Positions 13,570 through 32,240 of a stretch of 64,000 bases of DNA are shown one piece after another. This DNA is from Gemmatimonadota bacterium (GTDB lineage: Bacteria > Gemmatimonadota > Gemmatimonadetes > JACCXV01 > JAHWKZ01), in assembly GCA_050732935.1 (NCBI GenBank), contig JBOHRW010000150.1, positions 12,862 to 76,861 of the forward strand, in the 5' to 3' direction. Made by a program: the position numbers and the translations under genes. Positions within the stretch are counted from its first letter, which is position 1, and each line of letters opens with the position of its first letter. Under the pieces are notes generated by a model. The model was given only the letters and a program-made list of their open reading frames with translations, had not been told where the DNA came from and searched no databases.

Positions 13570-16191
<2,622 letters not shown>

Positions 16192-17561: not shown

Positions 17562-18812
17562 CTACGTCTTCGCCCGCGACAGCAAGATCAGCCCCACCAC
17601 CCCGAAGATCCCGTTCGCGAGCCAGGCCGCGGCGACCGGGGGCAGGCCGCCACCGTAGCCGATTCCCTGGCTGACCCGCAGGAAGCCCCAGAAGATGATC
17701 GTCAGGAACAACGCGAGGCCGAAGCCCATTCCGGCCCCGCGCCGGCTGAGGTGGGTCGCCGAACCCACCAGGGCGACCCCGAAGAGAGCGATGACGAAGT
17801 TGGCGAAGGGGTACGAGAGCTTCATCTGCAGATCGACCCGCTCGGTGAGCGTGTCGGCCCCGAGCCGCTCCTCCTTCGCGATGTAGGTCTGGAGATCCTG
17901 ATATCCCATCTCCTCGGGCTCCTTCTCCTCGGCGAGTAGCTCGCTCGGCGGATCGGCGAGGCTCGGGGACCGGAGGAGACTGAACCCGTACATCCGCTCC
18001 TCCCCGCCCTCGGGGAAGACGCGGAGCTCGCCACGGCGCAGGACCCATGTCCCGCTCGACGGCTCCCACACCATCTGCGGGGCGTTGATCCGGATAAAGG
18101 TCCCGTCGTCGAGTCGGCGCTGGATCTCCACCTGTTCGGCGGAGGCCTCGACTCCCATCCGCGGAGCGGTCTCCGCTGGCAGCTCGCTCGGTTCCCCTTC
18201 CTCGGCGGCCTCTGCGGCGGCCGCGAGCCCGGCCGCCTGACGCCGCTGCGCCAGCCTGAGGGCTTCCTCGGCGGCCGTGACAGCGGTGTCCGGGAGTAAT
18301 CCCTCCTCCACGAACAGGGAGCGCACGATGTACGTGTACCCCTCGTCGTTCTGATAGACGAAGTTCCCGCGGAAGTTCTCCCGCGCCGGCGGCTCACCGC
18401 GTATATCCTCCTCGTAGACCTGATTCACGCGTTCGTTGAGCCGCGGCACGACGGTCTCGCCGAGGGCGAGAACGGCGAGGCTTAGAAACAACGCGAACGA
18501 GAGCACCGGCAGGACGATCCGGTAAAGGCTCACGCCGCTCGCCTTCATCGCCGCCAGCTCACCGTGCCGGCCGAGCTCCCCGAGCGAGAGGATCGTCGCG
18601 ACCAGCACCGCCATCGGCATGGTGAGGAGGAGATTGTACGGGGTCTGGTAGAAATAATACCTGCCGATCGCCGACCAGCCCGCGCCCTCGTCGAGGTACA
18701 GGTCGATGTGATCCATCAGGTGGACGAGGACGAAGATCGCCGTGAGGGAGATGAGCGAGAGAATGAGCATGCGAATGAACTCGCCCATGACGTAACGGTC
18801 GAGGAGACGCAT
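17562..18812 (-). CDS. lptG: LPS export ABC permease, LptG-like (YjgP/YjgQ family)
   Basis: MRLLDRYVMGEFIRMLILSLISLTAIFVLVHL...AAMKASGVSLYRIVLP. The start is the internal ATG at 18812. The track's 265-aa N-terminal extension is antisense junk. It is second in a two-gene minus-strand operon. Confidence 0.7.
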   Translation of the reverse strand: MRLLDRYVMGEFIRMLILSLISLTAIFVLVHLMDHIDLYLDEGAGWSAIGRYYFYQTPYNLLLTMPMAVLVATILSLGELGRHGELAAMKASGVSLYRIVLPVLSFALFLSLAVLALGETVVPRLNERVNQVYEEDIRGEPPARENFRGNFVYQNDEGYTYIVRSLFVEEGLLPDTAVTAAEEALRLAQRRQAAGLAAAAEAAEEGEPSELPAETAPRMGVEASAEQVEIQRRLDDGTFIRINAPQMVWEPSSGTWVLRRGELRVFPEGGEERMYGFSLLRSPSLADPPSELLAEEKEPEEMGYQDLQTYIAKEERLGADTLTERVDLQMKLSYPFANFVIALFGVALVGSATHLSRRGAGMGFGLALFLTIIFWGFLRVSQGIGYGGGLPPVAAAWLANGIFGVVGLILLSRAKT

Positions 18813-18817
18813 CCCGA

Positions 18818-20263
18818 TCAGCCCCCGACGCCGACCCGATCGCCGCGCCGCTCCAGGCTCGTCTCGCGGACCTCGGGCTCGTCCCGCCGCCAAGGCCACA
18901 GGCGGGACCACCTCCAACGCCGACCTCCGGTTTCCCGGGTGGTGGCGCGCAGCAGCACCAGCCCGATCGCCAGGAACACGATGTTCGCCAGCCACATCGA
19001 CACCCACGGCGGCAGCAACCGTCGGTCGGCGAGGTCCTCGCCTCCGGTCAGGAACAGGTAGTAGAAGACGAAGACCAGCGTGCTGACGCCCATCGCGAAG
19101 CCGAACCCGCCACGTCGCGAGCGCACGCCAACGGGAGCGCCGATCAAGACAAAGACGATGCAGGCGATGGGAATGGCGAACTTCTTGTGATACTCCACCA
19201 GGAACTTGTTGCGCTGCCGCTGGGCGTAGTCGATGGCCTGGCTGAGACGCTGGACCATGCTCCGCCGGTAGCGCTCCTGCTCGACGGGCTCCCGTGGTCC
19301 GAGCGTCGTCGCCGCCCCGCTGTCCGACAGGGAGACGCTCAGCGAATCTCCCAGCAGGATCGCCAGATGGTCGACGACCGTCTTCTCGAGGTCCGCCTGG
19401 GCCTTGGCGATCCGGTCTTCCTCGTTTCGCACGTTGGCGAGAAGCGTCCCCAGGTCCATCTCGCGATCGCTGCGCATGGCGCTGATCTCCTGGCTTCGAT
19501 CCATGGTGGAGCCCACTCCGCGCAGGAGGATCTGCTGAGTCTCGAACGCGAGCACTTCGTACTCGCCGGGACTGGAGATGTCCCGCTGGTGGATCTTTCC
19601 GTTCCACAGGGTCAGCACGGCGTCTTCGCGATTGGTCGTGTAGTCCATGCGCCCGCTGTCGGCCAGAATGGTCCGCTGATCCTGCACATCTGACATGTCG
19701 AAGATCCTGAGGCCGTACATCATGTTGGTCTGCCGGTCGAGGCGCTGGGGCTCGATCCAGAAATCCCCCAAACCGGTGGGGTCGTTGAACCGTTTTTCCT
19801 CCAGGACCACGGTCGGCTTGGTGCGCTGGATGTCCTGCATGAGCTGGCTGAGCCGGTGGTTGCTCTCCGGGAGGATCGTGTCGTTGAACCAGACGGAGAG
19901 CCCGGCCACCACGATGGCGGCCGCCAGGGTGGGCGTGATGATCTGGTGGAGCCCGATCCCATTGGCCCGCATCGCGGTGATCTCGTTGTCACCGGACAGG
20001 CGGCCAAAAGCGGCCATCGTTCCCACCAGCACCGCCATCGGGATCGTCACGGCAACGGTCAGCGGCACCGACAGGGCGAAGATCTCGACGATCACCTGAG
20101 CTCCGAGGCCCTTGCCGGCCAGGTTCTGGAACTGGCGAGCCACCTGGTTCATGAGCATGATGAACGTGAAGACGATCAGCGCGAACACGAACGGTCCCAC
20201 ATGCTCGCGCAGGGCGTACAGCGAGAGGATTCGGGCACTGAACAAATCGCGGATTCCACGCAT
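18818..20263 (-). CDS. lptF: LPS export ABC permease, LptF-like (YjgP/YjgQ family)
   Basis: MRGIRDLFSARILSLYALREHVGPFVFALIVFTFIMLMNQ...TAMRANGIGLHQII. First gene of the pair, with a 5-nt gap to the lptG-like gene. Confidence 0.7.
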   Translation of the reverse strand: MRGIRDLFSARILSLYALREHVGPFVFALIVFTFIMLMNQVARQFQNLAGKGLGAQVIVEIFALSVPLTVAVTIPMAVLVGTMAAFGRLSGDNEITAMRANGIGLHQIITPTLAAAIVVAGLSVWFNDTILPESNHRLSQLMQDIQRTKPTVVLEEKRFNDPTGLGDFWIEPQRLDRQTNMMYGLRIFDMSDVQDQRTILADSGRMDYTTNREDAVLTLWNGKIHQRDISSPGEYEVLAFETQQILLRGVGSTMDRSQEISAMRSDREMDLGTLLANVRNEEDRIAKAQADLEKTVVDHLAILLGDSLSVSLSDSGAATTLGPREPVEQERYRRSMVQRLSQAIDYAQRQRNKFLVEYHKKFAIPIACIVFVLIGAPVGVRSRRGGFGFAMGVSTLVFVFYYLFLTGGEDLADRRLLPPWVSMWLANIVFLAIGLVLLRATTRETGGRRWRWSRLWPWRRDEPEVRETSLERRGDRVGVGG

Positions 20264-20586
20264 TCCTGGACCTTCAGGCTCGGTTGACCGTGGGGGGGGT
20301 CGACCTATATTCCGAGGCGTGCGACGACGCCATCTAAATTCCACGCGGAGCGGCATTTACGGCCGCAGCGGGCGGCCCGGACCGAGGCCAAGCTAACATT
20401 CGACATTTCCCGCGAACAATCACGGAGCCGCGCTGCCTGATACCCGCGGGGAGGCCTTCGGCTCCCTCGTGCACGACTCGGGCGGCGTCGCTCGGCGCTC
20501 TGGCGATCGTCCTTCTGGTCACCCCGCCGGCGCTCGCCCAGGAACCGGGCGCGCGCGCCCCGGCCCTCGAATGGCGGCACGCACCC

Positions 20587-23500
20587 GTGCCGGACGTCGA
20601 GAACCTGCCGTTCGATTCGATGCTCGCCTTCGATCCGTGGCTGGGCGCCGTGGTGCCCGGTCGGCCGACCCCCCTGCCCGCCCGGGAGGGGCTTCCGGTG
20701 GTGAGCGGGCTCGACGTGCTGGACTACCTCCGGGAGGTCCGGCTCCGCCGCGAGGCCCGTCTCTGGAGGCAGGTCGTGGCCGATCGTCTTGCCGGTCGTA
20801 GCCAGGAGGATGAGGGGCTCATCCCCGAGCTCGAGAATCCGCTCCGGATTCCCGAGCCGCTCGCCAGGGTTTTCGGCGAAGGCTCGGAGTTCGACATCCA
20901 GGGCCGGCTGCACCTAGGCGCGCTCGGAGCGCGCTCGAAACAGAATCCCGATCTGCGGACCGAGCTTCTCCGCCGGACCTCCGGCACTTTCGATCTCGAC
21001 CTGGACCAGACCCTCGACCTCAAGATCCTGGGGACGGTCGGGACGAAGCTCGACGTGGCGGTCGACTTCAACTCGCAGCGCGAGCTGGAGTCCAGACAGC
21101 TCATCACCGCCGCCTACACGGGGAGCGAAGACGAGATCCTCCAGAAGGTGGAAATGGGGGACATCAGCGTCGCGCTGCCACCCTCCCGTTTCCTCGGAGG
21201 CTCGGTGGGGACGGGGACCTTCGGCGCTCAGGCAGTCGCCCAGCTCGGGCCCATGGACTTCCGGGTCCTGGGCACGCGCAAGGAGGGGGAGAGCACGACG
21301 CGGTCCCTCTCGATCACCCCCAGCGGCGAGGGCGTGCTGTCGGATGTCACGCTCGATATCAAGGACACCCAGTTCCAGCGCGACCGGTTCTTCCTGCTGT
21401 TCCACCCCGATTCCCTGGCCTCGGTCCGCCTGAGCTTCCCGAATCCGGGGACCACGCTCGAGAACCCTGCTTCCCAGCCCGCGCTCGGGTCGCTCAACGT
21501 CTGGCTCGACGATGGGAATTTCTCGAACAACCGGGAGCAGAACTCCAAGCGTGGCGAGGCGCTGGTCAATCCGACCGATCCGGGCGCTTTCCCGGAACAG
21601 ACCTACGTGGGCTTTTTCGACCTCCTCGTCGAGGGGCAGGATTATGTCGTCACCGACGGGATCGTGCTGCAGATGCGGCGCCAGCTCAACGACTCCGAGG
21701 TGCTGGGGGTGTCATACGTCACCAGCGGGGGGACGCAGGTCGGGACGACTCAAGACGCCGAGGAGCAGGTTCTCAAGCTGATCAAGCCGACGAATCCCGA
21801 CACGCTGGACTTCACCTGGGACTACACCCTTCGGAACGTCTATTCCCTGCGCGAGCCGAACATCCAGCTCGGTTCCCTGGAGCTGGAGATCTATCGCGGC
21901 AACCAGGACCTCCGCCAGACCTTCGAGTCGATCGGGGGCCAGTCGCGTAAGTACTCGCGCATCTTCGGTCTCACCGACGCCAACAGTCGCGTCAACCTGC
22001 CGCGCATCCTGCGCGATCCGTTCCAGGGACCGGACTTCATCGTCTTCCCGGACGTCCGCCCGTTCTTCCAGCCCACCGACGAAACGGGTGCGGCGATCCC
22101 GATCGAGCGTCCCAACCGGCAGCTCTATTTCAACAGCGATCCGAACCGGACCGCGCTCGACGACCAGGTCTACTTCATCGAGGCCCGGTACCTGTCGCGC
22201 GGCGGACTGAGCGGCGAGATCGAGCTGGGGTCGGCCAACGTCATCGAGGGGTCGGAGCGGGTGTCGATCGGGGCGGAGACCCTGCTCCGCGGCGAGGACT
22301 ACCAGATCATCTACGAGCTCGGCCGACTCGTCCTGACCGACCCGGCCGGGCTGGCCGAGCGACATCCCAACGACCGTCTGGCCATCGAGTACGAGGTGGC
22401 TCCGCTGTTCAACCTCGCTCCGACGACGCTGTACGGCGCCGCGGGCTCCTACCATCTCGCAGAGGGGGCCGTCCTGAACTCGACCATCATGCTGCAGCGC
22501 AAGGAGAGCCTGGCCAACCGGCCGATCCTCGGCGCGGAGCCGACGCAGGCGCTGATCGCCGAGGTGGACGGTTCCTGGTCGCGGCCGCTGACCTTCATGG
22601 ACCGCTGGCTGGATGGCCTCCCCGGCTCGACCGGCGAGACGCCCTCCTCGTTCTCCCTGCGCGGGGAGATGGCCTTCAGCCGTCCGGACCCCAACACCGA
22701 CGGCGAGGTTTTCCTGAACGACTTCGAGAACATCGAGATCGCCAAGCGGCTGAGCCTGTTCTTCCGGATCTGGTACATCTCTTCGATACCCACGCAGGCC
22801 GGGCTCTCGCTCACCGATGTCGCGGATGCCCGATGGTTCACGTTCTTCATCCCGAGCGAGCAGGTCACCGGAGAACGCCGCAGGGAGGTGGATGTCGGGG
22901 AGAACAACTTCGTGATCCAGTTCGACCCGGTCGGGGAGGCCCCGACCGACCGGATGGCCTCCTGGCGCTCGATCGAGACCGTGCTGTCGACCACCGGCGA
23001 GGATCTGACGCGACAGGAGTTCATCGAGTTCTTCGTCCGTGGGGTCGAGGGCGAGATCATCGTCGATCTGGGCGTCGTGGACGAGGACGCCGTGCGGCTG
23101 GACGAGAATCGGGCGCCGGTCGGTGTCGGAGAGCTCGATACCGAGGAGGCGAATCCCGACACGCGGGACAACAACCTGGACGTCAACGAGGACACGGGTC
23201 TCGACGCCGTGCGTGGGCAGGATGCCGCCGATGTGCCCGGGGACGACGGGACGGATGATTTCAGCGAGGTCTTTGGTGCGAATTCCTTCCCGATCAATCC
23301 CAACGGGACCGAGAACAACAGCGTCCTGGACACCGAGGACAGCAACCTGAACGGGATCCTCGACCGCCAGGAGAATCTGCTGCGCTGGGAGGTCGATCTG
23401 ACGGGCGACCGCTACGTCGTCCCGGGCAGCCGAACCTCGACGGGGTTCCGGCGCATCCGCCTTCCGCTCGTGACGCCCGACCAGGTGGTGGGAAGTCCCG

Positions 23501-26250
23501 ATCTGCGGAATGTCCGGATCCTGAGGATGACGTTCACCGGCCTCGAGGACTCCACCGACTTCGAGATCGTGGATCTCGAGATCGTGGGGTCGACCTTCCT
23601 GAAGCGCGGGATCGTGGCGGCGGATGGCACCCCGCTGGCGGGACAGGAGACCGACAGCCTGCAAGTGACTGCCATCAGCGACCGCGAGAACCCGGGTTAC
23701 GAGAGTCCGCCGGGCGTGATCGCCGAGCAGGACCGGGCCGACCAGGTGGCGGGGCTGAGCGGCATCGTCCGCGAGCAATCGCTGGAGCTCACCTACAGGG
23801 GGCTTCCCCAGGGCGCGCGCGGGACGATCTTTCGCCCGCTGTTCGATCGCGAGTCGTACATCGACTACGAGCACATGCGGGTGTGGGTGCAGGGTCGTGA
23901 GGTGGAGGGGGCGGGTCAGCCCAGCTTCTTCGTCTCGTTCGGTATCGACACCCTGAACGTCTACGAGTATGCGGCTCCGCTGCGCGACATGGAGTGGGAG
24001 GAGCACGTCATCGACTTCGCGGTGTTCACCGAGCTCAAGCGGGCGCTGCTGGACAGCCTCGCCGAGGCGGGAGCCGACACCGGGACCCGCGTGTCCGAAG
24101 ATGGCCGCTACCGGGTCCGGTTGGACAACGCGGGCACCCCTCCGCCCACGCTGACCGAGGTGGCGCAGCTCACGATCGGCGTGGAGAACTCGACCGGTGC
24201 ACCGGTCACCGGCTCCTTCTGGGTCGACGAGTGGCGGCTGACCGCGCCGCTGCGGGACGGCGGGGCCGCCGCTTACCTGAACGCGCAGATGGACTTCGCG
24301 GACGTGGGGCAGGTGAACGTCTCGTACGAAACGCGGAGCGGACGATACCGCAACCTGAACGCCAACCGGAACAATTTCGACAGCGGAGATCTGGACGTGA
24401 ACGCGCTGCTTCGTCTGGACCGGTTTCTTCCCGAGGCGTGGGGTGTCTCCGTACCTCTCACCTGGAACCACTTCGGGGCGAGCGACATCCCGCTCTACCG
24501 CGTGGGTTCGGACATCCTGGTGACGAGCGGCGCGGAGCGCGACTCCATCGAGCGGAGCAGTCAATCAGACCTGATCGCCCTGCGGGCCTTCCGTACCCGG
24601 CAGTCGTCCAATCCGTTGATCGCCGCGACGCTGGACCGCCTGGAGCTCCGGATGACGTATCGGAACGACGACTTCGGCTCGGTCGACCTCGACAGCGAGC
24701 GCGGACGCTGGGATACGTACATCGGCTACCGAAACGGCTTTCGCAAGCGGGCCCTCCCCCTGGGACTGGGTTGGCTGGCCGGGCTTCCGTGGCCGTCGTT
24801 CCTGAAGGACAGCCAGCTTCTCCAGCGGCTCGCCTCGGCCGATTTGAACCTCGTGCCGGCCGACGTCACGGTGAGCGCGACGACCGACTTCGAGGAGCGA
24901 GCACAGAGCAAGCTGTTCGCCGACGGAACCGATTTTACCGCGGACACGACCCGCAACCTGAGGGGACAGGCGGCGGTCGAGTTCCAGCCATTCGCGTCCA
25001 TGCGCGCCCGGGTGGGTTGGGATTCCACGCGAGACCTGGTGTTTCCCCAGACGGTCTTCCACCGTGGCACGCTCGGAACCGAGGCCCTGCGGTCCCAGAA
25101 TCTCGACTTCGACTGGTCGCCCCCCATCGCGACGTGGCTGACTCCCCGGTACACCTACACTAGCTCTTTCTCCAAGAATCACACCCGCGAGGCGAGCCGG
25201 AGCCTGGACAGCCTCGATGTCCGTGACTTCGGGGTATCGATCAACCACACCTTGAGCGTCCAGATCGGGCTCCCCGAGCTGGTCGGGCTTCTGCAATCCG
25301 ACGAGGGCGGCGAGGCCGGCCCGGTGGCGACCTCCTCCGGGGAGAGCTGGTGGGAGCAATTGCTCGAGCCCATCCGCTATGACGCCCGACGACGCGAGAA
25401 CGTCTTCTACGTCCAGGAAGAGGACGATCCCACATTTGGATTCGGATGGGGCTTTGGCGACCTCGACGAGGAGAACCGGAGCCGCCCGCAGAGCTTCGGG
25501 CGCTACGACGAGTGGGGCCTCTCGACCGGTCTCGAGCCCCTCGATGGGCTGCTGATGCGCGGCAGCTATCGTGAGACCGACGACACCCGGCGCTATCTGG
25601 AGGGCGTCAACCTGAGCTCGTCCCGCGTGTGGCCGAGCATCGACCTCCAGTGGCGGAACATCCAGCTCCCCGGTTTTCTCGAGTCATGGGTGGCGACCAC
25701 CTCCCTGACCTCGGCGTTCGAGCGCCGGACCAGCGACAACATAGGCAACGGCCAGCTCCTCAGCGATTCCGATCGCCGGCAATGGGACCCCATTCTGTCG
25801 GTCGGCTTTACGCTGCGAAACGGCCTGTCGACCGACATCCGGGCGGTCAACAGCCAGGTCTTCACGACCCAGATCCTGGGCGGCTCGGTCGACAGCCGTC
25901 GCGAGGAGAACTCGACGGACTACCTGCTCAGCCTCGACTACAACATCCGGCCCGGGACGACGCTGTACATCCCGTTCCCGACCCTTTGGGGGGTGAAGCT
26001 GAAGCAGCCGCTCCTGACCTCGCTCACCTTCGCGCGCCGCTACCGTCTGGACGAGACGAACACGCCCCAATCGGAGACGCCGGTGGTCAATCTCGAAACC
26101 GTCACGACCGAGGTCCGCCCGTCCATCGCCTACGAGTTCGGCCGCGTCGTATCGGGGTTCGCGATCAACTATCTGTCGCGGAAGGACGAGAAGCGGGATA
26201 TACGGAATACGACCATCGGGATGGAAGCCTTCCTCGACTTTTTGTTCTAG
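20587..26250 (+). CDS. sprA: SprA-family giant outer-membrane beta-barrel (type IX secretion translocon homolog)
   Basis: 1,887 aa. The N-terminal block DLDQTLDLKILGTVGTKLDVAVDFNSQRELESRQLITAAYTGSEDEILQKVEMGDISVALP...FGAQAVAQLGPMDFRVLGTRKEGESTTRS is collinear with Flavobacterium SprA (DFDQRISMSLMGKIGTRLEVNANYDTQ...YTPSEDDIIQKIEVGNVSMPL...FGVKTQLQFG). The sequence is Gly/Asn/Asp-rich beta-strand throughout. The coordinate uses the first canonical start (GTG). A signal-peptide-like sequence is encoded in frame upstream; see findings. Confidence 0.7.
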   Translation: MPDVENLPFDSMLAFDPWLGAVVPGRPTPLPAREGLPVVSGLDVLDYLREVRLRREARLWRQVVADRLAGRSQEDEGLIPELENPLRIPEPLARVFGEGSEFDIQGRLHLGALGARSKQNPDLRTELLRRTSGTFDLDLDQTLDLKILGTVGTKLDVAVDFNSQRELESRQLITAAYTGSEDEILQKVEMGDISVALPPSRFLGGSVGTGTFGAQAVAQLGPMDFRVLGTRKEGESTTRSLSITPSGEGVLSDVTLDIKDTQFQRDRFFLLFHPDSLASVRLSFPNPGTTLENPASQPALGSLNVWLDDGNFSNNREQNSKRGEALVNPTDPGAFPEQTYVGFFDLLVEGQDYVVTDGIVLQMRRQLNDSEVLGVSYVTSGGTQVGTTQDAEEQVLKLIKPTNPDTLDFTWDYTLRNVYSLREPNIQLGSLELEIYRGNQDLRQTFESIGGQSRKYSRIFGLTDANSRVNLPRILRDPFQGPDFIVFPDVRPFFQPTDETGAAIPIERPNRQLYFNSDPNRTALDDQVYFIEARYLSRGGLSGEIELGSANVIEGSERVSIGAETLLRGEDYQIIYELGRLVLTDPAGLAERHPNDRLAIEYEVAPLFNLAPTTLYGAAGSYHLAEGAVLNSTIMLQRKESLANRPILGAEPTQALIAEVDGSWSRPLTFMDRWLDGLPGSTGETPSSFSLRGEMAFSRPDPNTDGEVFLNDFENIEIAKRLSLFFRIWYISSIPTQAGLSLTDVADARWFTFFIPSEQVTGERRREVDVGENNFVIQFDPVGEAPTDRMASWRSIETVLSTTGEDLTRQEFIEFFVRGVEGEIIVDLGVVDEDAVRLDENRAPVGVGELDTEEANPDTRDNNLDVNEDTGLDAVRGQDAADVPGDDGTDDFSEVFGANSFPINPNGTENNSVLDTEDSNLNGILDRQENLLRWEVDLTGDRYVVPGSRTSTGFRRIRLPLVTPDQVVGSPDLRNVRILRMTFTGLEDSTDFEIVDLEIVGSTFLKRGIVAADGTPLAGQETDSLQVTAISDRENPGYESPPGVIAEQDRADQVAGLSGIVREQSLELTYRGLPQGARGTIFRPLFDRESYIDYEHMRVWVQGREVEGAGQPSFFVSFGIDTLNVYEYAAPLRDMEWEEHVIDFAVFTELKRALLDSLAEAGADTGTRVSEDGRYRVRLDNAGTPPPTLTEVAQLTIGVENSTGAPVTGSFWVDEWRLTAPLRDGGAAAYLNAQMDFADVGQVNVSYETRSGRYRNLNANRNNFDSGDLDVNALLRLDRFLPEAWGVSVPLTWNHFGASDIPLYRVGSDILVTSGAERDSIERSSQSDLIALRAFRTRQSSNPLIAATLDRLELRMTYRNDDFGSVDLDSERGRWDTYIGYRNGFRKRALPLGLGWLAGLPWPSFLKDSQLLQRLASADLNLVPADVTVSATTDFEERAQSKLFADGTDFTADTTRNLRGQAAVEFQPFASMRARVGWDSTRDLVFPQTVFHRGTLGTEALRSQNLDFDWSPPIATWLTPRYTYTSSFSKNHTREASRSLDSLDVRDFGVSINHTLSVQIGLPELVGLLQSDEGGEAGPVATSSGESWWEQLLEPIRYDARRRENVFYVQEEDDPTFGFGWGFGDLDEENRSRPQSFGRYDEWGLSTGLEPLDGLLMRGSYRETDDTRRYLEGVNLSSSRVWPSIDLQWRNIQLPGFLESWVATTSLTSAFERRTSDNIGNGQLLSDSDRRQWDPILSVGFTLRNGLSTDIRAVNSQVFTTQILGGSVDSRREENSTDYLLSLDYNIRPGTTLYIPFPTLWGVKLKQPLLTSLTFARRYRLDETNTPQSETPVVNLETVTTEVRPSIAYEFGRVVSGFAINYLSRKDEKRDIRNTTIGMEAFLDFLF

Positions 26251-26299
26251 GCTGCTCTTCAGGTCTGGCTTCGCTCGGGTGGACCTCTATCTTCCGTGG

Positions 26300-27268
26300 A
26301 TGTTTCGAACCCGGATTCGTCGCCCGCAGGCGCTGTGGACGCTGGTGCTGGCGGCGCTCGCTCTGGTGCTCGCCTGCGGGGACGACGGAGGGCCGGAGCC
26401 CGTCGCAGGTGCGAGCTTCAGTGGAGAGCTGGCCGACAGCCTGGTCCGCCAGCTCGTGGCCTTCGGACCGCGGGTCCCGGGGACCGCGGCGCACGCAGAG
26501 GCGCTCGCCTGGATGACCGACTACCTGCGCGAGCGCACGGACGTCGTCGAACAGCGTCCGTTCACACACGTGACGCAGACCGGGGACACCCTCGAGCTGA
26601 CCAACCTGTGGGCTCAGTTCAATCCTCAGGCCGGGCAGCGCATCCTGGTGACCGGTCACTGGGACTCGCGGCCGGTGGCCGAGAAGGAGGCCGACCCGGC
26701 GAACCGCGACCGGCCGATCCCGGGAGCCAACGATGGCGGCTCGAGCGCGGCCGTGATCCTCGCCCTGGCCGATGTCCTGGCGGAGGATCCTCCCGCCATC
26801 GGCGTCGATCTCCTGCTGACCGATGGCGAGGACTGGGGCCACGACCCGGCCACCTTCAGCACGTTCGTCCCCGACATGTTCCTCGGAGCCAGGCACTTCG
26901 CCGCCAACGACGGCGCCGACTATCGGCCCCTGTTCGGCATCCTGCTGGACATGGTGGGGGAGGAGGGCGCGCGGTTCCCGATAGAGCAGAACAGTGAAGA
27001 GTTCGCCCCCGAGGTCGTGAGCCGGGTCTGGGAGGCCGCCGCGGACCTCGGCTATGGCGAGATCTTCGAATCGCGGGTCGGCCGGCCCGTCACCGACGAC
27101 CACGTCATCCTGAACCAGGCGGGAATCCGCACCATCGACATCATCGACTTCGACTACCCGTTCTGGCACACGCTGGAGGACACCCCCGACAAGCTGTCGG
27201 CGGCCACCATGGACGCTGTCGGCGACGTCGTCCTCGAAGTCATTCGTCGTCAGGCGGTAGGGGAGTAG
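26300..27268 (+). CDS. Glutaminyl-peptide cyclotransferase-like M28 zinc enzyme (lipoprotein)
   Basis: Lipobox LVLAALALVLAC. The motifs GHWDSRP...GANDGGSSAAVILALADVL...LLLTDGEDWG...GARHFA match animal-type QC motifs (HYDSK, GATDSAV, FFDGEE, GSRHLA). They do not match the aminopeptidase EExGLxGS motif. Confidence 0.65.
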   Translation: MFRTRIRRPQALWTLVLAALALVLACGDDGGPEPVAGASFSGELADSLVRQLVAFGPRVPGTAAHAEALAWMTDYLRERTDVVEQRPFTHVTQTGDTLELTNLWAQFNPQAGQRILVTGHWDSRPVAEKEADPANRDRPIPGANDGGSSAAVILALADVLAEDPPAIGVDLLLTDGEDWGHDPATFSTFVPDMFLGARHFAANDGADYRPLFGILLDMVGEEGARFPIEQNSEEFAPEVVSRVWEAAADLGYGEIFESRVGRPVTDDHVILNQAGIRTIDIIDFDYPFWHTLEDTPDKLSAATMDAVGDVVLEVIRRQAVGE

Positions 27269-27339
27269 CGTCGGTCCGGGACGCCGCGCGGCCCGACTCT
27301 TGATCCGGTCGGGCCCGGAGGGCGCGGAACGTCGGCTTC

Positions 27340-28089
27340 ATGACACCTGGCTGGCTGGACGAGAGGCTGACACCCGCCGAGCGCCAGGTCCTGGTAAGCC
27401 TGGCGGCGGCGTGGGCGTTCGGCGTGGTGGCCGGATGGATGGGCGTGCCGGAGCGGCTGGTGGATTGGTCGGAGCGGCGTCTCCATCCGCCCCTGCCAAC
27501 GCCGGAGGAGCTGGCCCGCGGGCTGTCGCCCGACGATCCACGTCCGGCCCTCTACGCCACCGGTCTCGCGGCCCGACGGGAGAAGGAGCGGGCGGCGGGC
27601 AAGCCCGTCCCGATCGATCCCAACACGGCCGATCGCGCGGCCTGGGTCCGACTACCGGGAATCGGCCCGCGCACGGCGGCCGCCATCCTGGAGCATCGAG
27701 CGGCCCGCGGGCCGTTCCGGCGGTCGGAGGACCTGCTGGCGGTGCGGGGGATCGGCCCGGTGACGCTCGAGAAGCTCCGGCCCTGGCTCCGATGGCCTCC
27801 TGGCGCGGCGGCCACGGGGCGCCCCGGTGGGCGAGGAGCGGGTTCCGGGCCCCCCGATCTCAACGAGGTGGACGCGGCGTTCCTGGAGGGGCTGCCCGGA
27901 ATCGGTCCAGAACTTGCTAGATCCATAGTCGAAGTTCGCCGACGGCGGCGTGGTTTTCGTGCCTGGCCGGAGGTCCTCGAAGTCGAAGGGATCGGACCGG
28001 CGAAGCTGCGCGTCTTGCAAAACGCGACGCGGCTCGAAAGGGCGCGCCCCGCAGCGCCTGCCGACCCTGTACGGCGAGAGACCGACTAG
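27340..28089 (+). CDS. ComEA-like competence protein with tandem helix-hairpin-helix domains
   Basis: An N-terminal membrane anchor is followed by two HhH modules: DPNTADRAAWVRLPGIGPRTAAAILEHRAARGPFRRSEDLLAVRGIGPVTLEKL and a second copy VDAAFLEGLPGIGPELARSIVEVRR...VEGIGPAKL. Confidence 0.7.
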   Translation: MTPGWLDERLTPAERQVLVSLAAAWAFGVVAGWMGVPERLVDWSERRLHPPLPTPEELARGLSPDDPRPALYATGLAARREKERAAGKPVPIDPNTADRAAWVRLPGIGPRTAAAILEHRAARGPFRRSEDLLAVRGIGPVTLEKLRPWLRWPPGAAATGRPGGRGAGSGPPDLNEVDAAFLEGLPGIGPELARSIVEVRRRRRGFRAWPEVLEVEGIGPAKLRVLQNATRLERARPAAPADPVRRETD

Positions 28090-28100
28090 GAAGGCCGACG

Positions 28101-29864
28101 ATGATTCACACCGCACCCACACCGGCGACGGCGACCGGACGGACGGCCGAGACGGCCCGCGGCCCCATCCGGAGCCGACCCACCATGACCGCCATTTTGC
28201 TCCAGGAAGGGCACATCACGGCCGACCAGATCTCGAGGGCGCTGGCGCGCCAGCGCTCCAACGGCCATCGGCTGGGCTACAACCTGATCGAGCTCGGGTT
28301 CGTCGATCCGCGAACGATCCGGGAGGTTCTCGAGCGTCAGCTGGGCGTCAAGGGGGTCGAGCTGGCCGCCCTCGAGACCGATCCCTCCGTCCTCAAGGTG
28401 ATTCCCGGCGAAATCGCCCGGCGATACGAGGTGTTCCCGATCCGCCGCCAGGGGGACACGATCGTCCTCGCCATGTGCAACCCGATCGACTGGATGGCGA
28501 TCGACGACCTCAAGTTCCTGACCGGCTACGAGATCGAGCCGCTGCTGGCGGACGAGTATTCAGTCATCGAGGCGATCGAGGCCCACTACGACGAGGACGA
28601 GAACTCGTACCAGAAGCTGCTCGACAACCTGGGGGAGTACGAGCTGGAGGTCATCGAGGAGGAGGAGGACGAAGATCCGACCGCCCTCGCCGCCCAGGTC
28701 GAGGCGGCGCCGGTCGTCAAGTTCATCAACTCGCTGCTGGCCGACGCCGTGAATCACGGCGCCTCGGACGTCCACATCGAGCCCTACGAGGACGAGCTCC
28801 GGATCCGCTACCGGGTCGACGGCGTGCTGCGCGAGACGCTGAGCCCGCCGCTCAAGATGAAGGCCGCGCTGATCTCGCGGATCAAGATCCTCGCGGACCT
28901 CAACATCGCCGAGCGGCGCTTCCCGCAGGACGGCCGCATCAAGCTCAAGATGGGGGATCGGGTCATCGATTTCCGCGTCTCCACGCTGCCCACCCTGTAC
29001 GGTGAGAAGATCGTGCTCCGGATCCTGGACGTCGGGCGGGTCGCGCTCGACCTGGAGGAGCTGGGTCTCTCCGAGGCGAGTCTCCAGGATCTGGTCCGTA
29101 GCGTGGAGTCGCCGTTCGGGATCCTGCTGGCGACCGGGCCGACCGGGTCGGGCAAGACGACGACCCTCTATTCGGCGCTGACCCGGCTCAACCAGCCGGG
29201 CGTCAACATCATGACGGTCGAGAACCCGGTCGAGTACAACCTCAAGGGGATCAACCAGGTCCAGGTACGCGAGGACATCGGGCTCGACTTCGCTCAGGCG
29301 CTGCGAGCGTTCCTGCGTCAGGACCCGAACATCATCATGGTCGGCGAGATCCGCGATCCCGAGACCGCCTCGATCGCCATCAAAGCCGCGCTGACTGGAC
29401 ATCTCGTCCTCTCTACGGTCCACACGAACGATGCACCATCGACGGTCAGCCGGCTGGTGGACATGGGCGTTCAGCCGTTTCTGGCGGCGAGCGCCCTCAA
29501 CTGCGTGGTGGCCCAGCGCCTCGTGCGACGGATCTGCGAGTCCTGCAAGCGCGCGCGGCGCTACCCGCGCGCCGTCCTCGAGGACGCCGGCTTTCCGGAG
29601 TCCGATCTCGGAGCCTCCTTCCACGAGGGCGCGGGTTGCGCGGAATGCGAGGAGACCGGCTACCGGGGGCGGATCGGCCTGTTCGAGGTCATGTCGATCA
29701 GCCGCCCGCTGCGGCGGCTGATCACCGAGCACGCCACCACCGAGGACATCCGCCGACAGGCGCTCGAGGACGGCATGATCACCCTGCGGGAGGACGGCCT
29801 CGGCAAGGTGAAGGCCGGGATCACCACACTCGACGAGGTGCTTCGTGAAACCGCTCTGGCCTGA
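28101..29864 (+). CDS. pilB: Type IV pilus assembly ATPase PilB (GspE family)
   Basis: GspII_E N-domain (EGHITADQISRAL...LIELGFVD), Walker A GPTGSGKTTTLYSAL, Asp box, His box, and a C-terminal tetracysteine CESC...CAEC. Confidence 0.9.
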   Translation: MIHTAPTPATATGRTAETARGPIRSRPTMTAILLQEGHITADQISRALARQRSNGHRLGYNLIELGFVDPRTIREVLERQLGVKGVELAALETDPSVLKVIPGEIARRYEVFPIRRQGDTIVLAMCNPIDWMAIDDLKFLTGYEIEPLLADEYSVIEAIEAHYDEDENSYQKLLDNLGEYELEVIEEEEDEDPTALAAQVEAAPVVKFINSLLADAVNHGASDVHIEPYEDELRIRYRVDGVLRETLSPPLKMKAALISRIKILADLNIAERRFPQDGRIKLKMGDRVIDFRVSTLPTLYGEKIVLRILDVGRVALDLEELGLSEASLQDLVRSVESPFGILLATGPTGSGKTTTLYSALTRLNQPGVNIMTVENPVEYNLKGINQVQVREDIGLDFAQALRAFLRQDPNIIMVGEIRDPETASIAIKAALTGHLVLSTVHTNDAPSTVSRLVDMGVQPFLAASALNCVVAQRLVRRICESCKRARRYPRAVLEDAGFPESDLGASFHEGAGCAECEETGYRGRIGLFEVMSISRPLRRLITEHATTEDIRRQALEDGMITLREDGLGKVKAGITTLDEVLRETALA

Positions 29865-29961
29865 CGTGGCGCGGACGGACGCCCTGGCGCCGAGCGACCC
29901 GGCTCCACACCTGCCGGACGGGACGAGCGACCTGGAGATGGATGCCCAGGATAGCTGTTCC

Positions 29962-31038
29962 ATGTCCGCGCTCCTGCGCGAGCTCGTGGAAGCCGGGGGC
30001 TCGGACCTCCACCTGACGGTGGGCCTCCCCCCACGGCTCAGGATCGACGGCGAGCTCGTGAACAGCCGGATTGCCGATCGCGCGCTGAGCCCCGAGCAGA
30101 CGCTGGCCCTCGCCAGCTCGCTCCTCAACGAGCGACAGCAGGCGGCGTTCGAGGCCACGAACGAGCTGGACTTCTCGTTCGGGATCGCCGGTCTGGCCCG
30201 GTTCCGCGCCAGCGTCTACCGCCAACGCGGGGCGGTGGGGGTCGCGATCCGCCAGATCCCTTACGAGATCCGGGGCTTCGACAGCCTTGGCCTGCCCGCC
30301 CACGTGGTCGACTTCGCGAAGCATCAGAACGGCCTGGTCCTAGTGACGGGGTCCACCGGCTCGGGGAAGTCGACCACCCTGGCGGCGCTGATCGATCGTA
30401 TCAACCACGAGCGCAAGGTCCACATCCTCACCATCGAGGATCCCATCGAGTTCGTGCACCACCATGGCCTGGCGATGGTGAACCAGCGCGAGGTGGGAAC
30501 CGATACGCGCTCCTTCGCGAGCGCGCTCAAGCACGCTCTGCGCCAGGACCCGGACGTCGTACTGATCGGGGAGATGCGCGACAACGAGACGATCGCCGCG
30601 GCGATCACGACCGCCGAGACCGGGCACCTCGTGCTGGCGACCCTGCACAGCAACTCGGCGGCCGAGTCGATCGACCGCATGATCGACGTCTTCCCGCCCG
30701 AGCAGCAGCCGCAGATACGCACGCAGCTCGCCTCCGTCCTCGAGGGGATCGTCACCCAGCAGCTGCTCCCGCGTATCGGCGGCGGGCGCGCCCTGGCGGC
30801 CGAGGTTCTCGTGGTGACCCCGGCCATACGGGCCCTCATCCGCGACGACAAGGCCCACCAGATCTACACCGCCATGCAGGCGGGCTCGAAGCACGGCATG
30901 CAGACCATGAACCACTCCCTGCTCGCGCTTCACCGCACGGGAGCCGTGAGCCGCGAGGAGATCCTGAGCCGGAGCGAGGATCCCGAAGAGCTGCGTCGGA
31001 TGATCCAGCTCGTCCCGGGCGGGTTCGACGGGAGCTGA
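29962..31038 (+). CDS. pilT: Twitching motility retraction ATPase PilT
   Basis: Start at the internal ATG MSALLRELVEAGGSDLHLTVGLPP. Walker A GSTGSGKSTTLAALI, and AIRALIRDDKAHQIYTAMQAGSKHGMQTMN matching the PilT AIRNLIRE motif. Confidence 0.9.
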   Translation: MSALLRELVEAGGSDLHLTVGLPPRLRIDGELVNSRIADRALSPEQTLALASSLLNERQQAAFEATNELDFSFGIAGLARFRASVYRQRGAVGVAIRQIPYEIRGFDSLGLPAHVVDFAKHQNGLVLVTGSTGSGKSTTLAALIDRINHERKVHILTIEDPIEFVHHHGLAMVNQREVGTDTRSFASALKHALRQDPDVVLIGEMRDNETIAAAITTAETGHLVLATLHSNSAAESIDRMIDVFPPEQQPQIRTQLASVLEGIVTQQLLPRIGGGRALAAEVLVVTPAIRALIRDDKAHQIYTAMQAGSKHGMQTMNHSLLALHRTGAVSREEILSRSEDPEELRRMIQLVPGGFDGS

Positions 31039-31040
31039 GC

Positions 31041-32240
31041 GTGCGGACATTTGTCTACAGGGCGCGCGCGGCGGACGGCACCAGCCAGTCCGGCGAGATC
31101 ACGGCCGGCAGCGAGGCCGAGGTCGCGGGTCAGCTCCGCAGCCGACGGCTAGTCGTGGTCAGCGTGAGGCCCAAGCCGCGCACGATCGAGATTTCCCTCA
31201 AGCGCGGACCGGGAACCAAGGATCTGGTCGTCTTCACCCGTCAGTTCGCGACGATGATCGGCGCCGGTCTGCCGCTGGTGCAGTCGCTGGACACGCTGGC
31301 CGCGCAGCAGAGCAAGCCTCGCGTCTCCGGGAAGATCCGCGCCGTGCTCCGCGAGGTGCAGGCGGGAGCCACGCTGGCCGACGCCATGCGGCGGCAGCGG
31401 GACTTCTTCGGCGAGATCTACGTCAGCATGATCGCCGCGGGCGAGGTCGGCGGCGTCCTCGACACGATCCTGAGTCGGCTGGCGGACTACCTGGAAGACG
31501 CGGCCCGTTTGAAGCGCAAGGTCCGTGGGGCGATGGTCTATCCGGTGACGGTCTTCGCGTTCGCCGGCATCGCCGTCTCGGTGCTCCTGATCTTCGTGAT
31601 CCCGACCTTCGCCCAGTTCTTCGTAGCCGCCGGTGTCCCGCTCCCTCTGCCGACCCGCATCGTGATCGCCGCCTCGAACCTCCTGCTCGCCTGGTGGTGG
31701 GCGGTGGCGGCGGGCATCGGCCTGGCGCTCTGGCTGGTCCGGGCCTGGTATCGGACGCCGGATGGACGGCTCGCGATCGACCGCTGGCTCCTCCGTGTCC
31801 CGGTCCTGGGGCCCGTACTGAGGAAAGCGGCCATCGCCCGCTTCAGCCGCACGCTGGGGTCGCTCGTGGAGAGCGGGGTCCCGATCCTCGAGGGGCTGGA
31901 GATCACCGCCCGGACCGCCGGGAACCGGGTCATCGAGGACGCGGTGCTCGCGAGCCGGGTTTCGATCGCCGGCGGCGACACGATCAGCGATCCGCTCCGC
32001 CGGAGCGGGGTCTTCCCGCCCATGGTCACCCAGATGATCAACGTCGGCGAGCACACCGGTGGGCTGGATGGCATGCTCGCCAAGATCTCCGACTTCTACG
32101 AGGACGAGGTCGAGGCCGCCGTGGGGGCGCTGACGTCGATCATCGAGCCGATCATGATCGTAGTGCTGGGAGCGATCGTGGGCGGAATGGTGGTGGCGAT
32201 GTATCTGCCGATCTTCGACCTCATCCAGACCGTGCAGTAG
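31041..32240 (+). CDS. pilC: Type IV pilus inner-membrane platform protein PilC (GspF family)
   Basis: Two GspF repeats (LATMIGAGLPLVQSLDTL and LGSLVESGVPILEGLEI) and three TM segments. Confidence 0.85.
   Translation: MRTFVYRARAADGTSQSGEITAGSEAEVAGQLRSRRLVVVSVRPKPRTIEISLKRGPGTKDLVVFTRQFATMIGAGLPLVQSLDTLAAQQSKPRVSGKIRAVLREVQAGATLADAMRRQRDFFGEIYVSMIAAGEVGGVLDTILSRLADYLEDAARLKRKVRGAMVYPVTVFAFAGIAVSVLLIFVIPTFAQFFVAAGVPLPLPTRIVIAASNLLLAWWWAVAAGIGLALWLVRAWYRTPDGRLAIDRWLLRVPVLGPVLRKAAIARFSRTLGSLVESGVPILEGLEITARTAGNRVIEDAVLASRVSIAGGDTISDPLRRSGVFPPMVTQMINVGEHTGGLDGMLAKISDFYEDEVEAAVGALTSIIEPIMIVVLGAIVGGMVVAMYLPIFDLIQTVQ

What the first reader, a model, noticed from the sequence alone, without database searches (positions are those of the whole stretch)
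20587..27268. SprA (type IX secretion translocon) homolog paired with a lipoprotein glutaminyl cyclase in a Gemmatimonadota/Rhodothermota-like high-GC genome
The 1,887-aa ORF is collinear with Flavobacterium SprA over the diagnostic N-terminal block; compare DLDQTLDLKILGTVGTKLDVAVDFNSQ...YTGSEDEILQKVEMGDISVALP with DFDQRISMSLMGKIGTRLEVNANYDTQ...YTPSEDDIIQKIEVGNVSMPL. It is about 500 aa shorter than the Bacteroidetes proteins.

The next gene encodes a lipoprotein with animal-type glutaminyl-cyclase motifs (HWDS, GANDGGSSAAV, DGEDWG, GARHFA). In Bacteroidetes, SprA is the T9SS translocon, and a QC lipoprotein converts the N-terminal Gln of exported proteins to pyroGlu.

No gldK/L/M/N, porV, plug or PPI genes flank the gene here. 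On one side are divergent lptFG genes, on the other a type IV pilus locus. So the system's composition and cargo in this lineage are open. This is an unusual, under-characterised context for a T9SS core component.
Basis: partly seen in the sequence, partly recalled or inferred. Interest (0 to 1): 0.6.

Follow-up and report, generated by a model that had tools for sequence, protein, structure and literature searches.

The report
SprA translocon gene with glutaminyl cyclase
A soil-type Gemmatimonadota genome carries a compact version of the giant outer-membrane secretion pore SprA, followed directly by the enzyme that caps exported proteins with pyroglutamate. The pairing hints that a supposedly Bacteroidota-only envelope habit (the "Q-rule") is older and wider, though the genes themselves are known kinds.

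Summary
The large ORF is a true SprA/Sov orthologue: NCBIfam TIGR04189 scores 443 bits against a cutoff of 200. It aligns collinearly end to end with Bacteroidota SprA. AlphaFold models of both halves hit only the F. johnsoniae SprA structures (E 3e-51 and 4e-33).

The next gene is a lipoprotein type II glutaminyl cyclase (QC). Its best solved relatives are the T. forsythia and P. gingivalis QCs (E 4e-56 and 4e-49), and the D-G, E-D and W-H signatures are intact.

The organism is a Gemmatimonadota MAG. Two starts need correcting. sprA begins at CTG 20437, not 20587, which restores a signal peptide ending ALA|QEP. The QC gene begins at ATG 26300.

New points:
- sprA-QC adjacency persists down to 32% SprA identity. 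It recurs in Marinisomatota/Fidelibacterota beside PorV/PorQ-family genes.
- The frame lptGF | sprA - comEA - pilBTC is conserved across all four Gemmatimonadota-type lineages sampled.

No other T9SS gene lies within about 72 kb, and the rest of the genome could not be searched. Verdict: a new member of known kinds, in a moderately interesting context.

The parts
17562..18700 (-). lptG-like permease gene (start approximate)
   Evidence: Pfam LptF_LptG E 4e-72. Conserved upstream of sprA in L001, L004, L006, L007, L009, L010 and L012.
18818..20356 (-). lptF-like permease gene, divergent from sprA
   Evidence: Pfam LptF_LptG E 7e-86. 62-94% identical in L001-L006.
20284..20311 (+). sigma-70-like promoter match upstream of sprA (weak evidence)
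   Evidence: TTGACC-16-TATATT, 10 of 12 matches. It is the only hit in 8 kb, against 0.5 expected in shuffles.
20437..26250 (+). sprA/sov orthologue, 1937-aa precursor (corrected start CTG 20437; stop included)
   Evidence: TIGR04189 443 bits against a cutoff of 200. Pfam SprA_N. PDB 6h3i/6h3j SprA E 2e-35. Collinear alignment with 14 SprA proteins. AF2 halves give Foldseek top hits 8gl8/8gl6/6h3i/6h3j at E 3e-51 and 4e-33.
20437..20538 (+). Sec signal peptide of SprA (34 aa, ...VTPPALA), followed by Gln codon CAG at 20539
   Evidence: Direct reading of the sequence. An A|Q junction is conserved in about 34 of 36 orthologues with at least 60% identity.
26300..27268 (+). Lipoprotein type II glutaminyl cyclase (322 aa; lipobox LVLA|C, Cys codon at 26375-26377)
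   Evidence: Pfam Peptidase_M28. Best solved relatives are TfQC 6qro E 4e-56 and PgQC 6qql E 4e-49, against E above 1e-4 for aminopeptidases. The D-G, E-D and W-H signatures named by Taudte 2021 are present. There is a 49-nt gap after sprA and no terminator-like site between the genes.
27340..28089 (+). ComEA-like helix-hairpin-helix protein
   Evidence: Pfam HHH_3 E 2e-29. It follows sprA or the QC gene in the Gemmatimonadota-type loci L001, L003, L004, L005, L007, L009, L010 and L012.
28101..32240 (+). pilB, pilT, pilC (start of the type IV pilus locus)
   Evidence: Pfam T2SSE, T2SSE and T2SSF.

Best explanation
The region encodes a two-gene envelope unit in a Gemmatimonadota bacterium.

Gene 1 (20437-26250) is a full-length but compact orthologue of SprA/Sov. 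In Flavobacterium johnsoniae, SprA is the 36-strand outer-membrane beta-barrel that forms the pore of the type IX secretion translocon. The precursor is exported by Sec, signal peptidase I cuts after ...PPALA, and the mature protein starts with Gln.

Gene 2 (26300-27268) lies 49 nt downstream on the same strand and is probably co-transcribed. It encodes a membrane-anchored periplasmic lipoprotein of the mono-zinc, animal/Bacteroidota-type glutaminyl cyclase family. This enzyme converts N-terminal Gln exposed by signal peptidase I into pyroglutamate, which protects exported proteins from aminopeptidases.

[quoted passage not shown] The organism therefore appears to follow the 'Q-rule', and SprA is a likely QC client.

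Shown: the identity, fold and architecture of both proteins, the conserved adjacency, and Gln at +1.

Inferred: that SprA works here as a protein-export pore with PorV-like carriers and a motor encoded elsewhere, that the two genes form an operon, and that the QC is active on these substrates.
For: SprA identity: NCBIfam TIGR04189 E 2e-132, 443 bits against a cutoff of 200. F. johnsoniae SprA is the only PDB sequence match. The alignment with Bacteroidota, Rhodothermales, WOR-3, Glassbacteria and Longimicrobiales SprA is collinear; the length difference is spread over 17 indels of 13-87 aa. The C-terminus ends ...LDFLF. AF2 models of residues 35-1100 (pLDDT 73.5) and 990-1937 (pLDDT 83, almost all long strands) hit only SprA chains, at E 3e-51 and 4e-33. 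The next-best hits are at E above 1e-6.

QC identity: with the diagnostic residues taken from PMC7948796. The lipobox is read directly from the sequence.

Q-rule: Gln follows the predicted cleavage site in SprA, DPP-IV (start 6930), the TPR protein (32672) and the PilP-like protein (46433), but not in PilQ. That is 4 of 5 in the window.

Linkage: sprA is followed by the QC gene in L001, L003, L004 and L005 (62-90% SprA identity). The same holds in L009 (44%, two tandem QC copies, stop and start overlapping) and in L012 (32%, 22-nt overlap). It recurs in Marinisomatota/Fidelibacterota locus L016 (25%, overlapping), where PorV/PorQ-family genes follow.

Mechanistic background: SprA from PMC10994853; QC and the Q-rule from PMC5837995 and PMC10653852.
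Against: No GldK/L/M/N, PorV/Q/P/U/Z, SprE or SprT gene and no CTD-bearing cargo was detected by Pfam or NCBIfam in the 64-kb window, nor by precomputed Pfam in about 8 kb beyond its left end. No ORF in the fetched Gemmatimonadota loci carried a precomputed T9SS Pfam family. No Gemmatimonadota PorV homologue could be identified with the tools.

Other Gemmatimonadota (Longimicrobiales L007 and lineage L010) have sprA without an adjacent QC gene. The QC is phylum-wide, found in Longimicrobiaceae at 51-54% identity, so the pairing is not obligatory.

Closure of a single 36-strand barrel was not modelled, because the protein exceeds the predictor's length limit. The signal-peptide calls are manual and heuristic, not SignalP predictions.
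Confidence: 0.75

Rival explanations
1. The sprA-QC adjacency has no type IX-specific meaning. The QC is a general housekeeping enzyme for all Sec/SPase I substrates, and it sits next to sprA only through inherited gene order within a block of envelope-biogenesis genes (lptFG, sprA, comEA, pil).
For: QC orthologues occur throughout Gemmatimonadota, including lineages where the gene is not next to sprA. Gln at +1 is seen on proteins of unrelated function: DPP-IV, a TPR protein, a PilP-like protein and DUF5916. Bochtler et al. concluded experimentally that cyclization does not target proteins to the T9SS.
Against: The pair recurs with overlapping stop and start codons in lineages whose SprA proteins are only 25-44% identical, and in a second phylum with different surrounding genes. 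Neutral synteny predicts this poorly.
Confidence: 0.4
2. This is an orphan SprA-like barrel that works outside a canonical T9SS. It might act in outer-membrane or LPS biogenesis, or with the type IV pilus/ComEA DNA-uptake machinery, as its invariant neighbours would suggest.
For: lptG-lptF | sprA - comEA-like - pilB/T/C is conserved from this clade to Longimicrobiales, at 26% SprA identity. In WOR-3, sprA lies against pilMNOPQ. In Glassbacteria, an HHH_3 gene lies two genes downstream of sprA. No T9SS partner was found in about 72 kb.
Against: Both halves of the protein reproduce the SprA fold, including the capped-barrel wall. Abby et al. model several T9SS components in Bacteroidota as scattered 'loners'. 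In Marinisomatota the same gene pair lies beside PorV/PorQ-family genes. No known mechanism links SprA to Lpt or to type IV pili.
Confidence: 0.15
3. The 322-aa M28 protein is an ordinary di-zinc aminopeptidase rather than a glutaminyl cyclase.
For: NCBI names it and its orthologues 'M28 family peptidase'. Several PDB relatives were deposited as 'leucine aminopeptidase'.
Against: Those PDB entries (3tc8, 4fuu) were re-assigned as QCs on structural grounds (PMC7948796). The protein scores E 4e-56 and 4e-49 to proven QCs, against E above 1e-4 to true aminopeptidases. The second M28 gene in the window (33523-34611) shows the opposite pattern. The bacteroidal-QC-specific E-D zinc ligand pair, the D-G motif and the W-H motif are all present.
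Confidence: 0.04

Closest known systems
SprA (Fjoh_1653) of Flavobacterium johnsoniae / Sov of Porphyromonas gingivalis, the T9SS outer-membrane translocon (PDB 6H3I, 6H3J, 8GL6, 8GL8)
   Same: Same family model (TIGR04189), and a collinear alignment from the N-terminal conserved block to the C-terminal Phe. Both halves have the same predicted fold. Both precursors have a Sec signal peptide followed by Gln. Bacteroidota-type SprA N-termini such as P0120, P0089 and P0092 also read A|Q.
   Different: About 466 aa shorter, through 17 scattered loop-sized deletions. Only about 20% identical. It sits in a different phylum, with different conserved neighbours: lptFG and comEA-pil, instead of ruvA as in Bacteroidota locus L013. 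The partner proteins PorV, Plug, PPI, SprE and SkpA have not been identified.
Bacteroidal type II glutaminyl cyclases PgQC (PG2157 / PGN_0202, 6QQL) and TfQC (6QRO)
   Same: M28 fold family. The mono-zinc signature is intact (Asp-Gly, Glu-Asp, Trp-His). It has a lipoprotein signal and matches at E 4e-49 to 4e-56 over the whole catalytic domain. Its substrates carry Gln at +1 of signal-peptidase-I sites.
   Different: A 7-residue deletion lies in the loop before the W-H motif, and the Phe at position -5 of PgQC is not in register. The gene is directly linked to sprA; whether that is also the case in P. gingivalis was not checked here. The organism lies outside the phylum for which the Q-rule was defined.
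The Bacteroidetes 'Q-rule' (Bochtler et al. 2018; Szczesniak et al. 2023)
   Same: Gln follows the predicted signal-peptidase-I site in roughly 70-80% of the small sample here, similar to the 71% phylum average reported for Bacteroidetes. The same type of QC is present.
   Different: The rule was described as exclusive to Bacteroidetes, with scattered high values elsewhere in the FCB group (Ignavibacterium 77%). Gemmatimonadetes is not mentioned in the main text or in the held supplements. The sample here is about a dozen proteins, judged by eye.
SprA homologues already annotated in other FCB phyla
   Same: NCBI names relatives 'cell surface protein SprA' in Gemmatimonadota, Longimicrobiales, Glassbacteria, Calditrichaceae and Rhodothermales MAGs. 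These share the compact length of 1,825-2,170 aa.
   Different: The window's clade is only 25-28% identical to those proteins. The identical protein (P0001) is itself annotated 'hypothetical protein', in an N-terminally truncated gene model.

Membership tests
SprA/Sov family (NCBIfam TIGR04189, Pfam PF14349) | Whole-protein score above the curated family cutoff | tested here: met
   TIGR04189 443 bits against a cutoff of 200, E 2e-132. PF14349 74 bits against 27.
SprA/Sov family (NCBIfam TIGR04189, Pfam PF14349) | Full-length collinearity with characterised SprA, not merely a shared domain | tested here: met
   The 15-sequence alignment is collinear from N- to C-terminus, and the differences are 17 indels of 13-87 aa. 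phmmer blocks map to F. johnsoniae residues 147-294, 657-882 and 1206-1646 or beyond.
SprA/Sov family (NCBIfam TIGR04189, Pfam PF14349) | Giant capped beta-barrel fold as in 6H3I | tested here: inconclusive
   The two half-models (pLDDT 73.5 and 83) hit only SprA chains, at E 3e-51 and 4e-33 with TM 0.5-0.56 on the query. Closure into one 36-strand barrel and the lateral opening could not be modelled, because the protein exceeds the 1200-aa limit.
SprA/Sov family (NCBIfam TIGR04189, Pfam PF14349) | Outer-membrane targeting: Sec signal peptide and a C-terminal aromatic beta-signal | tested here: met
   The signal peptide ...LLVTPPALA|QEP appears once the start is corrected. The C-terminus is ...LDFLF.
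Type IX secretion system (complete system) | Motor and ring components GldL/M and GldK/N (PorL/M/K/N) in the same genome | not testable with these tools
   None was found in the 64-kb window or in about 8 kb beyond its left end.
Type IX secretion system (complete system) | Carrier and attachment proteins PorV/PorQ/PorU/PorZ | not testable with these tools
   None was found in the window. A PorV/PorQ-family seed from Marinisomatota locus L016 (NF033709, 72 bits) retrieved no protein attributable to Gemmatimonadota.
Type IX secretion system (complete system) | [quoted passage not shown] | tested here: not met
   No such domain was found in any scanned ORF of the window or in the precomputed Pfam of the fetched Gemmatimonadota loci. 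This covers about 60 genes only, so it says little about the genome.
Bacterial type II (animal-type) glutaminyl cyclase | Closer to proven QCs than to M28 aminopeptidases | tested here: met
   TfQC E 4e-56 and PgQC E 4e-49, against E 1.4e-4 or worse for aminopeptidases.
Bacterial type II (animal-type) glutaminyl cyclase | Mono-zinc site: Asp followed by Gly, Glu-Asp pair, Trp-His (PgAsp149/Gly150, PgAsp183, PgTrp298/His299) | tested here: met
   GANDGG, DGEDWG and FWHT align to GADDGG, DTEDYG and HWHT of PgQC. The residue roles come from PMC7948796.
Bacterial type II (animal-type) glutaminyl cyclase | Periplasmic lipoprotein | tested here: met
   MFRTRIRRPQALWTLVLAALALVLA|CGDDGG has a lipobox. 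Orthologues in L001, L004, L009, L012 and L016 also have a lipobox Cys.
Bacterial type II (animal-type) glutaminyl cyclase | Cyclase activity on N-terminal Gln | not testable with these tools
   Requires an enzyme assay or N-terminal proteomics.

The most novel reading that the evidence does not exclude
The SprA-type translocon and the QC/Q-rule system may form one ancestral envelope module of the FCB superphylum rather than two Bacteroidota specialities. On this reading the recurrent, translationally coupled sprA-QC gene pair reflects a real dependence. One possibility is that the pyroglutamate cap protects the extended periplasmic N-terminus of SprA until it is assembled; in F. johnsoniae this is the segment held by the Skp-like chaperone SkpA. 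If so, Gemmatimonadota would run a reduced or differently powered SprA-based export pathway.
Probability: 0.2. Interest if true: 0.6.

Novelty: new member of a known kind. Interest (0 to 1): 0.42.

Why it matters
Nearly all of the T9SS literature treats the T9SS and the Q-rule as Bacteroidota traits, and their phylogenetic coincidence has been noted but never explained. Here both are documented in Gemmatimonadota, a cosmopolitan soil and freshwater phylum. The translocon gene and the cyclase gene are physically coupled in two FCB phyla, and the translocon's own mature N-terminus is Gln. This provides a concrete, testable genomic link between the two traits. It also argues that public annotation is wrong for this clade: a truncated 'hypothetical protein' for SprA and 'M28 family peptidase' for the QC. 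It does not reveal a new kind of machine.

Tried and rejected
1. Finding T9SS partners in the same genome. Walking out from the window ends gave only about 8 kb on the left, with no T9SS genes, and nothing on the right.

2. Using the Marinisomatota PorV/PorQ-like protein of L016 as a seed. The word-indexed search returned only Marinisomatota/Fidelibacterota/Calditrichota relatives. The exhaustive profile search gave 25,312 family members but no names. Ten high-GC-looking hits looked up by cluster carried no Gemmatimonadota label. This is inconclusive, not negative.

3. Literature. No paper in the library links glutaminyl cyclase to Gemmatimonadota, and only one review sentence lists Gemmatimonadetes among phyla that 'may' have a T9SS. 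Kulkarni 2017 (PMC5446621), cited there, is not held.

4. The idea that the missing ~500 aa reflects loss of a discrete domain was rejected. The deficit is spread over 17 loops, and lengths of 1,825-2,170 aa are typical of non-Bacteroidota SprA.

5. The second M28 gene (33523-34611) was considered as another QC and rejected. It matches di-zinc aminopeptidases.

6. The TPR protein at 32672 was considered as a SprE/PorW analogue. No family support was found.

7. A full-length structure model was not possible, because of the 1200-aa limit.
Full report
**What is there.** The window has about 68% G+C. Coding ORFs stand out by GC3 above 0.8.

Pfam and NCBIfam scans of essentially all plausible genes gave the following map:
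- glycosyltransferases and sugar-modifying enzymes at 191-5197
- an aminotransferase, DPP-IV, ADH, GNAT and Tag
- AlaRS at 13570-16191 and a SIS protein
- two LptF/LptG permease genes on the minus strand at 17562-20356
- the two genes of interest
- a ComEA-like HhH protein, then PilB, PilT and PilC
- a TPR protein, a second M28 peptidase and PilS/PilR
- pilins, PilMNO, a PilP-like protein and the PilQ secretin
- TopA, TrmFO, HslU, GcvT and further genes

No family associated with type IX secretion other than SprA was found.

**Organism.** A scan of one genome per species found six loci, all from Gemmatimonadota MAGs, with SprA 62-90% identical.

**SprA.**
- The protein scores 443 bits on NCBIfam TIGR04189, 'T9SS outer membrane translocon Sov/SprA', against a cutoff of 200.
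- F. johnsoniae SprA is its only sequence match among solved structures.
- An alignment with SprA proteins from Bacteroidota, Rhodothermales, WOR-3, Glassbacteria and Longimicrobiales is collinear from end to end.
- The 466-aa deficit relative to a 2404-aa Bacteroidota protein is spread over 17 indels of 13-87 aa.
- Non-Bacteroidota SprA proteins generally measure 1,825-2,170 aa, so the short length is a lineage trait and not a truncation.
- The protein exceeds the structure predictor's length limit, so I modelled two overlapping halves with a 36-sequence alignment. The C-terminal 948 aa gave mean pLDDT 83 and is almost entirely long strands. The N-terminal 1066 aa gave pLDDT 73.5.
- Foldseek against the PDB returned the four F. 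johnsoniae SprA chains as the top hits for each half, at E 4e-33 to 3e-26 and 3e-51 to 3e-33. The next hits were at E above 1e-6.
- Fold-level homology is therefore established. Closure into a single 36-strand barrel is inferred.

**Corrected starts.** The sprA reading frame is open from 20338. No ATG, GTG or TTG is available there. CTG 20437 has GGAG 9 nt upstream. Orthologue L002 has GTG at the homologous codon, and L003 and L006 have ATG-initiated signal peptides. The public gene model of 1887 aa therefore lacks the export signal. The QC gene most likely starts at ATG 26300, as in L001, which leaves a 49-nt gap with no terminator-like hairpin.

**The cyclase.**
- The second protein is an M28-fold protein.
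- Its best solved relatives are the proven glutaminyl cyclases of Tannerella forsythia (E 4e-56) and P. gingivalis (E 4e-49), together with Bacteroides and Parabacteroides entries since re-assigned as QCs.
- True aminopeptidases score above 1e-4.
- The residues that Taudte et al. give as diagnostic of bacteroidal QCs are conserved: Asp-Gly, the Glu-Asp pair with the QC-specific Asp zinc ligand, and Trp-His.
- The N-terminus carries a lipobox, LVLA|C.
- The other M28 gene in the window (33523-34611) shows the opposite pattern and is an ordinary aminopeptidase-like lipoprotein.
- QC orthologues are abundant across Gemmatimonadota, including Longimicrobiaceae at 51-54% identity.

**Q-rule.** Once the sprA start is corrected, its mature N-terminus is Gln.
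- The same holds for DPP-IV (...AAAPLPA|QEA), the TPR protein (...SPGRA|QDP) and the PilP-like protein (...AHALA|QQE). It does not hold for PilQ.
- Across the non-redundant signal peptides visible in all fetched Gemmatimonadota DNA, about 8 of 11 show Gln at +1.
- Among SprA orthologues with at least 60% identity, about 34 of 36 read A|Q.
- This matches the 'Q-rule' reported as a Bacteroidetes speciality with a 71% average.
- Gemmatimonadetes is not mentioned in those papers or their held supplements, and no held paper links QC to this phylum.
- The sample is small and was judged without SignalP, so I treat this as a strong lead rather than a measurement.

**Synteny.** The arrangement lptG-lptF (minus) | sprA-QC-comEA-pilB-pilT-pilC (plus) holds in L001, L003, L004 and L005. 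Deeper lineages behave as follows:

| Locus | Lineage | SprA identity | After sprA |
|---|---|---|---|
| L009 | Gemmatimonadota | 44% | two tandem QC paralogues, stop and start overlapping |
| L012 | Gemmatimonadota-related | 32% | QC orthologue overlapping sprA by 22 nt |
| L007 | Longimicrobiales | 26% | same lptGF/comEA/pil frame, no QC |
| L010 | lineage with a 3.1-Mb genome | 26% | same lptGF/comEA/pil frame, no QC |
| L016 | Marinisomatota/Fidelibacterota | 25% | overlapping QC orthologue (42% identity, E 2e-61); see below |
| L011 | Glassbacteria | 28% | no QC within 10 kb downstream |
| L015 | WOR-3 | 23% | no QC within 10 kb |
| L013 | Bacteroidota | 23% | no QC within 8 kb; ruvA precedes sprA |
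| L014 | Rhodothermales-like | 22% | no QC within 8 kb; a Por_Secre_tail protein lies 1.5 kb downstream |

In L016, sprA and the QC gene are followed by a lipoprotein, then a BNR protein with a C-terminal FlgD_ig domain, then two PorV/PorQ-family genes (NF033709 72 bits, below the curated cutoff of 90 but with E 6e-20).

The sprA-QC pair therefore recurs in two phyla and is often translationally coupled. It is not universal.

**How it most likely works.** In F. johnsoniae, SprA is a 36-strand barrel capped outside, with a lateral opening. PorV docks on that opening and inserts loops that bind the cargo's C-terminal domain. Energy from the GldLM motor then pulls the PorV-cargo complex away. The extended SprA N-terminus is held by a Skp-like trimer (PMC10994853). 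I infer that the Gemmatimonadota protein forms the same kind of pore. The cyclase would act on Gln-terminated periplasmic and outer-membrane proteins in general, SprA included, and would protect them from aminopeptidases, as shown for P. gingivalis (PMC10653852).

Whether the coupling of the two genes has a type IX-specific meaning is open. Published experiments argue that cyclization does not direct type IX export. That supports the rival view that the adjacency is merely co-expression of envelope genes. The orphan-barrel rival cannot be excluded, because no partner gene could be searched for genome-wide. The invariant lpt and comEA-pil neighbours are its only support.

**Known or new.** SprA homologues in this phylum are already named in public annotation, and a 2024 paper lists Gemmatimonadetes among phyla that 'may' have a T9SS. 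JGI already calls the orthologues glutaminyl-peptide cyclotransferase. The finding is thus a new member of known kinds. Three things appear not to have been described: the conserved sprA-QC gene pair, the evidence for the Q-rule in Gemmatimonadota, and the wrong start in the public gene model.

**Limits.**
- About 72 kb of one genome was inspected.
- Attempts to find a Gemmatimonadota PorV with a Marinisomatota seed were uninformative.
- Barrel closure, operon structure, enzyme activity and secretion function remain untested.

Noticed in passing
window 20338-20587: The public gene model for this SprA (identical protein P0001, 1887 aa, 'hypothetical protein') starts at GTG 20587 and lacks the signal peptide. 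The real start appears to be the non-canonical CTG at 20437, with a GGAG Shine-Dalgarno sequence 9 nt upstream. L001 and L004 also use CTG at this codon, whereas L002 uses GTG.
   Followed up: yes
window 6930, 20539, 32672-33526, 46433-46951; L002 2254-2799(-); L007 3547-6222(-); L009 1624-2064; L010 4582-7260(-): Gln directly follows the predicted signal-peptidase-I cleavage site in most exported proteins of these Gemmatimonadota loci, about 8 of 11. The published 'Q-rule' is described as exclusive to Bacteroidetes.
   Followed up: partly
window 17562-32240; L007, L009, L010, L012: The order lptG-lptF (minus) | sprA-(QC)-comEA-like-pilB-pilT-pilC (plus) is conserved across Gemmatimonadota lineages whose SprA proteins are only 26-44% identical. 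The reason for this deep linkage of an LPS exporter, SprA and type IV pilus/competence genes is unexplained.
   Followed up: partly
L016 10001-21585: A Marinisomatota/Fidelibacterota contig carries sprA and an overlapping QC gene. These are followed by a 'choice-of-anchor X' lipoprotein, a BNR protein with a C-terminal FlgD_ig domain (possibly a CTD-like sorting domain), and two PorV/PorQ-family genes. This is a compact T9SS-like cluster outside Bacteroidota.
   Followed up: partly
L009 11627-13613: The 44%-identity Gemmatimonadota lineage has two tandem QC paralogues after sprA, 59% and 56% identical to the window QC. Both are lipoproteins.
   Followed up: no
L015 5500-19836; L013 7363-15437: In a WOR-3 MAG, sprA is preceded by three parvulin-type PPIase genes and abuts a convergent pilMNOPQ operon. 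In a Bacteroidota contig, ruvA (another HhH protein) lies immediately upstream of sprA. HhH-protein genes also sit next to or near sprA in the Gemmatimonadota and Glassbacteria loci.
   Followed up: no
window 33523-34611 and 32672-33526: A second M28 lipoprotein (aminopeptidase-like, not a QC) and a small TPR protein with Gln at +1 are embedded between pilC and pilS. The pair is conserved at 79-90% identity in L001. Its role in the pilus locus is unknown.
   Followed up: partly
window 6285-9221: The DPP-IV/S9 peptidase ORF has a 215-codon upstream extension of odd composition. The real start is ATG 6930, which gives a signal peptide. The upstream extension overlaps the 3' end of the aminotransferase ORF (5419-6825).
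   Followed up: partly
window 21712-24564 (-): A 950-aa ORF lies antisense to sprA. It fails the GC3/GC2 coding-composition filter that sprA passes, so it is probably a high-GC artefact and not a gene.
   Followed up: partly
window 39187-43428: Between the pilin genes and pilM lie ORFs with no family match (39512-40546, 42202-43428) and one with only a prepilin N-terminal motif (41129-42211). They are probably minor pilins or PilY1/PilX-like proteins, and the gene boundaries here are uncertain.
   Followed up: no
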